Origin: Octopus vulgaris
Taxonomy: Eukaryota
Assembly (NCBI GenBank): GCA_951406725.2
Contig: OX597819.1
Location: 9,610,001-9,674,000 of the forward strand
Direction of reading: 5' to 3'
Length of the DNA stretch: 64,000 bases
The notes below the pieces were generated by a model. It searched no databases. It saw nothing but the letters and a program-made list of their open reading frames with translations, and was not told where the DNA came from. Shown piece by piece: positions 27,937-28,154 of the stretch. Each line of letters starts with the position of its first letter. Position 1 is the first letter of the stretch. Position numbers and translations under genes: made by a program.

Positions 27937-28154
27937 TTACGGAGATGTACTCGCATAGCAAGTAATTTGATCTGAGATCGTGTGCTGAAACGAAAACAAT
28001 TGCAGCGTGGGAGGTGTTTATAAGCCATTTAAGAAACACACAAAAGCCGTTCGATTCACTCCAACATTTAAGTTTAATTTGTCAAAATATTTTCGTCGCT
28101 AAAATCCGCGACCTGTTCACTGACAAAGTCCGTGCTGCATCTCGTGCTGTTTTT
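27937..28154 (-). mobile_element. Short (TA)n-embedded element with variant HHR
   Basis: Flanked by long (TA)n on both sides. Distantly similar to 60540-60722. Confidence 0.65.
28078..28127 (-). ncRNA. Hammerhead ribozyme candidate, G3-C8 core variant
   Basis: tttgtca GTGAACA G gtcgc-ggatttta-gcgac GAA AATATT T tgacaaa. Perfect 7-bp helix I, 5-bp helix II, palindromic helix III. Confidence 0.65.

What the first reader, a model, noticed from the sequence alone, without database searches (positions are those of the whole stretch)
28078..28127. Family of minimal hammerhead scaffolds with natural compensatory swaps of the 3-8 core pair
Seen: three dispersed short elements share one architecture, helix I / 7-nt core / extra G / helix II / GAAA / AT-rich short helix III / U-H / helix I. 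46372-46414(-) has CTGAGGA with GTCAC..GTGAC. 28078-28127(-) has GTGAACA with GTCGC..GCGAC and a perfect 7-bp helix I. 60684-60722(-) has TTGAAAA with GTTGC..GCAAC. Established: C3 and G8 of the hammerhead core form a Watson-Crick tertiary pair that double swaps can rescue, and PLEs carry minimal HHRs thought to act as dimers through palindromic helix III. Inference: C-G, G-C and U-A at 3-8 together with covarying helix II indicate selection on a ribozyme fold. Standard CUGANGA searches would miss the G-C and U-A variants. Some natural 3-8 variants have been reported elsewhere, so novelty needs a literature check.
Basis: partly seen in the sequence, partly recalled or inferred. Interest (0 to 1): 0.9.

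Follow-up and report, generated by a model that had tools for sequence, protein, structure and literature searches.

The report
Swapped-core hammerhead ribozyme in octopus retrotransposons
The three motifs are short copies of three related families of Penelope-like jumping genes, each carrying a small predicted self-cutting RNA, and in one family with thousands of copies the core C-G pair is naturally flipped to G-C, which likely still allows cutting but is untested.

Summary
Observation confirmed and extended. [quoted passage not shown] Family A (28078, G3-C8) has 6,427 genome matches, with 93 of 100 listed being G3-C8, and long copies with an open RT plus GIY-YIG frame. B (C3-G8) and C (U3-A8) are related lineages. 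A much older relative of A (F) also has G3-C8. All 11 lineages of the clade whose motif I could read pair 3 with 8 (5 C-G, 4 U-A, 2 G-C); two of them were read by eye. U3-A8, the extra nucleotide and the palindromic helix III are published for PLEs. I found G3-C8 in print only as an engineered, partly rescued mutant, but four key papers were unavailable. New clue: short A copies stop 4-25 nt upstream of the core (15 of 20) and never at the cut site. They were copied from uncut RNA whose 5' end likely lies about 22 nt before the ribozyme. Cleavage is untested. The scan noted 3-8 swaps before, on phage DNA.

The parts
28078..28127 (-). Family A minimal hammerhead scaffold, G3 (28120) - C8 (28115); predicted cut between 28085 and 28084
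   Evidence: MFE fold forms helices I and II, z -2.98
27937..28142 (-). Short copy of PLE family A: 5' end 22 nt upstream of position 3, fixed 3' end about 90 nt into the ORF, set in (TA)n
   Evidence: 100% identical over 206 nt to the 3' end of long copy L100
27939..28028 (-). Likely start of the family A ORF (ATG 56 nt after the predicted cut site)
   Evidence: same position and weak likeness to the N-terminus of the intact family E ORF (inference)
46370..46414 (-). Family B minimal hammerhead scaffold, C3 (46409) - G8; helix I decayed; predicted cut between 46376 and 46375
46291..46458 (-). Old short copy of PLE family B (85% to L075)
   Evidence: upstream RT/EN remnants in L071, L072, L075, L083
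60685..60721 (-). Family C minimal hammerhead scaffold, U3 (60718) - A8; 3-bp helix I; predicted cut between 60688 and 60687
60529..60725 (-). Short copy of PLE family C, including the ORF start at 60614, which is 63% identical to the family E N-terminus
   Evidence: tblastn E=2e-5
60720..60804 (+). Inverted 5' duplicate of the family C copy, with a second U3-A8 motif at 60726
7187..7233 (+). Family D canonical minimal hammerhead scaffold (C3-G8, extra A); not linked to an ORF here

Best explanation
The three motifs sit in the pseudo-LTRs of three related Penelope-like retroelement families and are likely working minimal hammerhead ribozymes in the master elements, with G3-C8 and U3-A8 predicted to replace the C3-G8 core pair without losing it. 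SHOWN: the anatomy; the sense orientation 56 nt upstream of the ORF start; fixed 3' ends, 5' truncation, inverted 5' duplicates and (TA)n targets; an RT + GIY-YIG ORF upstream in long A copies; a Watson-Crick 3-8 pair in every lineage read; 5' ends of short copies piling up just upstream of the core. INFERRED: the element is transcribed from a pLTR promoter starting about 22 nt before the core. The PLE protein primes reverse transcription inside the ORF start on uncut RNA and often runs off the RNA 5' end, which yields the ~200-nt copies in the window. A fraction of the RNA folds, pairing the palindromic helix III with a second hammerhead (the other pLTR or a second RNA, probably with help from the PLE protein), and cuts after U17. 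That would clip a ~58-nt leader and so process the transcript or change its translation, rather than make the insertion template. The window copies themselves are inert passengers.
For: A: 6,427 core matches, 0 reversed-pattern controls, 93 of 100 listed G3-C8, 7 single changes, 0 double. No other letter at >=5% at 28120 or 28115 in contigs of 4 runs from 4 organism labels. ORF of 1025 open codons with YVDD and a GIY-YIG Pfam hit at E 1.8e-5. Old relative F: 70 matches, 17 of 20 G3-C8, 3 A3-C8, flanks 66-71% identical to A. Tree: A clade sister to B+E, 100/99. B: 92 of 100 C3-G8, while the free position 7 varies in 15. C: A8 in 99 of 100, position 7 varies in 6; U3-A8 in 30 of 30 loci. Metagenome relatives with different helix sequences: L295, L297, L300 C-G; L294, L304, L318 U-A. 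The A3-U8 pattern shows no excess (6,376 vs 6,802 control). 5' ends: 15 of 20 at -25 to -4, 0 at the cut site. Engineered C3G/G8C partly restores a PLE hammerhead, which is protein-assisted, and uncut RNA is the insertion template (PMC11167929).
Against: No cleavage data. Copies decay neutrally, so counts within a family measure copy number, not selection. G3-C8 is one origin (A plus F), seen in no relative outside this genome. The highly active sister family E has C at position 9 in 95 of 100 listed matches, and L309-L313 have A at position 12, so the clade tolerates uncompensated core changes. 4 of 29 B loci have G3 with G8, and 3 of 100 genome-wide. No motif was seen in 9 of 19 relatives with enough 3' sequence. 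HHR-dead PLE RNA inserts normally in vitro, and Naiads lack HHRs. Published min-HHRs cleave poorly even as dimers. C has a 3-bp helix I, and cofolding of A did not return a helix III dimer as the lowest-energy state. An extra G is outside the published H consensus. The transcription start is inferred from DNA ends only.
Confidence: 0.68

Rival explanations
1. The fold is a hammerhead by descent, but cleavage is negligible or dispensable in these lineages. The structure is kept as a protein-binding or reverse-transcriptase-pausing element, and G3-C8 is a relic of compensation under weak selection.
For: Family E thrives with C9 (3,518 matches; many 1312-aa open frames). No copy begins at the cut site. 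HHR mutants insert normally and no RNA reads end at the cut site in the anole PLE. Naiads lack HHRs. 3 of 20 copies end inside the fold.
Against: G3-C8 has persisted from F to A across about 30% flank divergence with U4-G5-A6, GAAA and U16.1 kept in A. Position 7 varies more than 3 or 8 in B, and more than 8 in C. A pure secondary-structure role does not need a tertiary 3-8 pair.
Confidence: 0.24
2. The shared motif is a DNA-level signal (internal promoter or endonuclease site) or a MITE terminal repeat that mimics a hammerhead, and the 3-8 pairing is coincidence.
For: C lies in an inverted repeat. The motif is just downstream of the inferred start, where promoter elements lie. A, B and C share helix II letters by descent.
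Against: The inverted arm is a shorter, variable duplicate of the 5' part, as in PLE inversions. Relatives keep the helices with different letters. 11 of 11 lineages are paired at 3-8. The motif is sense to the ORF in every lineage.
Confidence: 0.06
3. Chance look-alikes picked from AT-rich repeat DNA.
For: Loose patterns match thousands of times by chance; 9 unpaired hits in the 1.2-Mb sample.
Against: 20 paired hits against 2.55 expected; with G10.1 required, 12 paired against 0.2 and 0 unpaired; same position in homologous elements.
Confidence: 0.02

Closest known systems
Minimal type I hammerheads of metazoan PLEs (Cervera and de la Pena 2014, PMC4209133)
   Same: pLTR location, extra nucleotide after position 9, G10.1-C11.1, palindromic helix III, dispersed truncated copies, nearby opposite-strand pairs; U3-A8 variant in Schistosoma Cercyon elements (about 1,300 hits).
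   Different: None of the representatives listed in their Fig. S3 text has G3-C8. The extra nucleotide here is G (their consensus is H; one Nasonia row has G). Helix III has 4 inner nucleotides in A.
Poseidon PAc hammerhead of Anolis (Frangieh et al. 2024, PMC11167929)
   Same: Hammerhead at the ORF start, reverse transcription primed inside the ORF, a tail between two start sites, uncut RNA as template, G3-C8 partly active.
   Different: G3-C8 there is an engineered double mutant; here it is the natural state of an amplifying family. The hammerhead here lies wholly upstream of the ATG, and the tail is about 55 nt rather than 30-40.
Natural core variants (Perreault et al. 2011, PMC3088659)
   Same: Natural U3-A8 covariation; natural U15.1-A16.1, as in L297.
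   Different: The section I read reports no G3-C8.
C-terminal-endonuclease PLE clades Neptune, Nematis, Hydra (Craig et al. 2021, PMC8557442)
   Same: RT followed by a Cys linker and GIY-YIG; partial tandems, inverted 5' copies, (TA)n targets.
   Different: ORF over 1,000 aa, DKS motif, C and H residues in the endonuclease region: unlike Hydra as described. Not placed among Neptune or Nematis, because no reference sequences were in hand.

Membership tests
PLE minimal type I hammerhead | Literal CUGANGA core | tested here: not met
   Met by B and D; A has GUGAACA and C has UUGAAAA. A and C are core variants, not literal members.
PLE minimal type I hammerhead | Watson-Crick pair between 3 and 8 | tested here: met
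   A 93/100, B 92/100, C 30/30, F 17/20
PLE minimal type I hammerhead | U4-G5-A6, A9, G12-A13-A14, A15.1-U16.1, H17 | tested here: met
   All three window motifs; relative E differs at position 9
PLE minimal type I hammerhead | Extra nucleotide after position 9 and G10.1-C11.1 | tested here: met
   Extra G and G-C in A, B, C; published consensus is H
PLE minimal type I hammerhead | Helix I and helix II | tested here: met
   A 7 and 5 bp; C 3 and 5 bp; B bulged helix I and 6 bp
PLE minimal type I hammerhead | Self-complementary helix III allowing a dimer | tested here: inconclusive
   A (AATATT) and C (AATT) are palindromes; B's family form needs G-U pairs; cofolding did not give the helix III dimer as minimum for A
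PLE minimal type I hammerhead | Self-cleavage after H17 | not testable with these tools
   No raw RNA reads offered; contigs cannot show ends
Rfam hammerhead models | Covariance-model hit | tested here: not met
   No hammerhead hit at E<=10 for 28040-28150; none at gathering score in L294, L295, L300
Penelope-like element | RT followed by GIY-YIG in one ORF | tested here: met
   A: YVDD and PF01541; B: remnants 50-65% to E; C: only the ORF start was seen
Penelope-like element | Partial tandem with a hammerhead in both pLTRs | tested here: inconclusive
   Met in 4 of 5 full-length E copies; for A only a rearranged tandem (L093); no full-length A copy was recovered
Penelope-like element | Inverted 5'-truncated copy, tail, microsatellite target | tested here: met
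   inverted arms end about 55 nt short of the main 3' end; (TA)n flanks
MITE / DNA transposon | Fixed terminal inverted repeats | tested here: not met
   Inverted arm variable and absent from many copies
Non-LTR retrozyme | Tandem non-coding monomers each with a hammerhead | tested here: not met
   A, B, C are dispersed ends of coding elements; exceptions are one local C array (L035) and unrelated L255

The most novel reading that the evidence does not exclude
This is the first natural, amplifying G3-C8 hammerhead in a retroelement, in a single PLE clade that has used three of the four Watson-Crick states of the core pair. The ribozyme sits about 22 nt behind the transcription start and works as a protein-triggered switch: uncut RNA is copied into DNA, and cut RNA loses its capped leader 56 nt before the start codon and changes its translation or fate. 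That would answer what PLE hammerheads are for.
Probability: 0.27. Interest if true: 0.75.

Novelty: new variant of a known kind. Interest (0 to 1): 0.5.

Why it matters
The role of PLE hammerheads is an open question (stated in PMC7761336 and PMC8557442). This clade offers a natural experiment: recently amplified sister families with G3-C8 (A) and with C3-G8 plus C9 (E), open ORFs, and a sharp 5' boundary that predicts where the RNA starts. Lineage-level covariation of a tertiary pair is the best sequence evidence available that the catalytic fold is under selection. In practice, CUGANGA descriptors and Rfam miss about 13,000 motifs in this genome alone (A 6,427, C 3,410, E 3,518), so some PLE families scored as lacking a hammerhead may carry variant cores. 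A specialist would find it neat rather than startling, because U3-A8 is known in nature and G3-C8 is known to work partly in the lab.

Tried and rejected
Rfam on the whole window: the 150 best of 562 listed hits were microsatellite look-alikes plus one 5S rRNA; the targeted scan found no hammerhead. MITE reading of C: rejected. Copies starting at the cut site as a trace of cleavage in vivo: 0 of 20. RNA evidence: no RNA holder listed on record; only contigs could be laid, so no ends, strand or level. Other G3-C8 families with a different position 7: the loose pattern gave fewer matches than its control (2,703 vs 4,059) and yielded only F and A variants. A3-U8 family: none evident. Phage G3-C8 hammerheads: 3 of 39 pattern hits passed a three-helix filter (L360 and L363 look complete), but the mismatched G3-G8 control gave 1 of 21 (L413), so this is inconclusive. 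The idea that G3 lineages must avoid C17: fits A and F, but U17 is common in the clade and L360 and L363 have C17; not supported. A Neptune-like remnant upstream of one C copy (L039) was first taken as C's ORF; dropped as probably a neighbour, because C's own ORF start matches E. Cofolding as a dimer test was uninformative. Pfam missed the RT domain. Not held and not read: Lunse 2017, Przybilski and Hammann 2007, Hammann 2012, Martick and Scott 2006. One supplement file of PMC4209133 could not be searched.

Full report
OBSERVATION. The window is G000:C6:9610001-9674000 of a 2.8-Gb animal genome. A 55%-identical relative of the element's protein is labelled Octopus vulgaris by its source, so I call the host an octopus. 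The three motifs are present as described. A descriptor with positions 3 and 8 free and helix II of at least 5 Watson-Crick pairs finds 5 hits in the window. All 5 are paired at 3-8; 30 local dinucleotide shuffles give 0.3 paired and 0.8 in total. In 120 evenly spaced 10-kb stretches the same descriptor gave 29 hits: C-G 9, G-C 7, U-A 4, A-U 0, unpaired 9. Twenty shuffles gave 2.55 paired and 6.1 unpaired; with G10.1 required the observed counts are 12 paired and 0 unpaired. The excess is real but comes from a few repeat families. A folds with helices I and II as its minimum-energy structure (z -2.98); B and C fold more weakly (z -1.3 and -1.6). Rfam finds no hammerhead at A.

WHAT THE ELEMENTS ARE. 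Family A: the 214-nt query had 1,542 candidates, and the 40 scored were 99-100% identical. Copies share a fixed 3' end followed by (TA)n, have variable 5' ends, and often carry an inverted duplicate of their 5' part. Long copies extend upstream into an ORF. [quoted passage not shown] About 20 copies at 96-100% have no stop in the 209-residue query. This matches the PLE anatomy described in PMC8557442 (passages and section 11 read, supplement part 2 read). A second, very abundant family E (1312-aa ORF, 55% to A) shows the full structure: in 4 of 5 full-length copies fetched, a hammerhead lies just upstream of the ORF and another about 4.6 kb downstream. Family B copies (84-88% to the window copy) have upstream ORF remnants 50-65% identical to E in L071, L072 and L075 (lower in L083). 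The sequence downstream of C's motif encodes an ORF start 63% identical to E's N-terminus. A maximum-likelihood tree of 19 rows puts the A clade sister to B+E with 100/99 support; the B rows are short remnants read with X at breaks. C is not in the tree. So A, B and E are one clade by tree, and C joins by its 34-residue N-terminal match only.

THE 3-8 PAIR. Genome-wide, with 3 and 8 free, A's core pattern has 6,427 matches and 0 control matches. Of the first 100 listed, 93 are G3-C8, 7 carry one change and none carries two (counted by eye). Contigs from 4 runs with 4 organism labels show no other letter at 5% or more at either position. An older family F (70 matches, 0 controls) has G3-C8 in 17 of 20 copies fetched and A3-C8 in 3; its flanks align to A at 66-71%. 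Read column by column, F has a G-C where A has U-A at the sixth pair of helix I, and one more pair in helix II. B: 311 matches, 92 of 100 C3-G8, 6 changes at position 3, 2 at position 8 and 15 at the free position 7. C: 3,410 matches, A8 in 99 of 100, position 7 changed in 6 (position 3 was not displayed there, but is U in 30 of 30 loci). A metagenome scan gave 41 relatives, of which 19 had at least about 100 nt beyond the ORF. The script found motifs in L294 (U-A), L295, L297 and L300 (C-G); I read two more by eye, L304 and L318 (U-A). Four near-identical loci (L309-L311, L313) have a C-G look-alike with A at position 12, and 9 showed nothing. The same script also gave 5 hits inside ORFs, 2 of them paired, which I treat as chance. 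Counting lineages, A, F, B, E, C and six relatives give 11 of 11 paired: 5 C-G, 4 U-A, 2 G-C, with different helix letters in the distant ones. A and F are one origin of G3-C8. An A3-U8 pattern shows no excess over its control.

AGAINST. E has C at position 9 in 95 of 100 of its 3,518 matches and is evidently successful; L294 also has C9. A9U reduced cleavage at least 20-fold in an artificial ribozyme but occurs in functional natural ones (PMC10085705, section 14 read). Four of 29 B loci have unpaired G3-G8. Phage contigs hold two complete-looking G3-C8 hammerheads among 39 pattern hits, but a mismatched control pattern gave one among 21. So the pair state is probably not unique to octopus, and single examples prove little. 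Cofolding does not return the helix III dimer for A.

A CLUE TO FUNCTION. I took 20 copies that match A's last 90 nt perfectly. They are the first 20 not already held among 40 tied rows; 8 held rows were skipped, 4 of them long copies. Their 5' ends relative to position 3 are: 10 at -25 to -19, 5 at -12 to -4, 3 inside the fold, 2 far upstream, and 0 at the cut site (+36). The window copy ends at -22. The 20 nt upstream of -25 are unique sequence, not microsatellite, so the boundary is not an alignment artefact. All 9 head-to-head pairs among the 100 rows lie 44-96 nt apart, which fits. C behaves alike: 26 of 30 end at -13 to -2 (these loci were chosen by a query starting at -3). E is more spread, with 6 of 21 inverted pairs at 123-177 nt. 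The 3' end lies about 90 nt inside the ORF. PMC11167929 (main text parts 1-2 read) shows four things for an anole PLE. Reverse transcription starts inside the ORF's first 120 nt. Uncut RNA is the template. The hammerhead needs the protein. C3G/G8C partly restores cleavage. I infer that the short copies are run-off cDNAs of the mRNA leader, that transcription starts near -22, and that the ribozyme sits between cap and start codon, 56 nt before the ATG. Cutting would remove about 58 nt of leader. Type I hammerheads in viral 5' UTRs were reported to promote cap-independent translation (PMC13725137, passages), which makes a translational role plausible but does not show it here. A strong reverse-transcriptase stop at a fixed site is an alternative reading of the same boundary.

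COMPARISON WITH WHAT IS KNOWN. PMC4209133 (main text parts 1-2 of 4 and supplement parts 1-2 read) describes PLE minimal hammerheads, the extra nucleotide, G10.1-C11.1, the palindromic helix III, opposite-strand pairs and U3-A8 in Schistosoma. Its alignment text shows no G3-C8. PMC3088659 (section 8) reports natural U3-A8 only. PMC3884650 mentions a G3-C8 laboratory variant (passages). Searches for a natural G3-C8 were made; for octopus PLE hammerheads. None showed one. Also seen as passages only: PMC6765202, PMC2837043, PMC6155905, PMC7761336; part 1 only: PMC2920678 and bioRxiv 10.64898/2026.07.22.740005. Lunse 2017 (recalled as about 150,000 PLE-linked variants), Przybilski 2007, Hammann 2012 and Martick 2006 were not held, and any of them could already record G3-C8; figures and bioRxiv supplements were not visible. 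From recall, not from a call: an extra G after position 9 was detrimental in a viroid hammerhead; the 2'-OH of nucleotide 8 is the general acid (one search supports this for G8).

VERDICT. A real feature: PLE pLTR minimal hammerheads. B and D are ordinary members, C is a known variant (U3-A8), and A/F is a core variant (G3-C8) that I could not find reported in nature (about 60% that it is unreported). It works like a PLE minimal hammerhead on every sequence test. It fails the literal CUGANGA consensus, and cleavage is untested. New variant of a known kind; interest 0.5.

Noticed in passing
window 7187-7233 (+): Canonical C3-G8 minimal hammerhead with extra A, family D; 21 matches in the DNA held; no ORF linked.
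   Followed up: partly
L268:2563-6498 (+) and 3,518 genome matches: Very active PLE family E, 1312-aa ORF with an Asn-rich insert; its hammerhead has C at position 9 in 95 of 100 matches.
   Followed up: partly
L255:6724 and 7087 (+): 363-nt tandem repeat, each unit with a U3-A8 type I hammerhead with a 6-bp helix I: looks like a non-LTR retrozyme with a variant core.
   Followed up: no
L260:2041 (+) and 6160 (-): Two further U3-A8 minimal hammerheads of other families, with a palindromic ACCGGT helix III.
   Followed up: no
L035 (G000:C5:38735392-38738479): Tandem array of about 100-nt family C fragments, each with the U3-A8 motif and a short inverted piece.
   Followed up: no
L297:4569 (+): PLE hammerhead with inverted U15.1-A16.1 inside a perfect TAGCTA palindrome.
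   Followed up: no
L309, L310, L311, L313, just past the ORF: Hammerhead look-alike with A in place of G12 in four near-identical loci.
   Followed up: no
L360, L363, L413 (viral contigs): Complete-looking type I hammerheads: two with G3-C8, one with unpaired G3-G8.
   Followed up: partly
L110:969 (+), L110:9865 (-), L182:4394 (-): Another canonical minimal hammerhead family without the extra nucleotide.
   Followed up: no
window 18537-18655 (-): 5S rRNA-like sequence, 98.7 bits.
   Followed up: no
window 28294-28424 (-) and 60830-60990 (-): Copies of one abundant dispersed repeat, SINE-like by recall, next to both A and C.
   Followed up: no
window 35749-36450 (-): 234-codon open frame whose N-terminal part looks mariner-transposase-like by recall.
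   Followed up: no
L039, upstream of the C motif: Broken Neptune-like RT and endonuclease remnant, probably a neighbouring PLE.
   Followed up: partly
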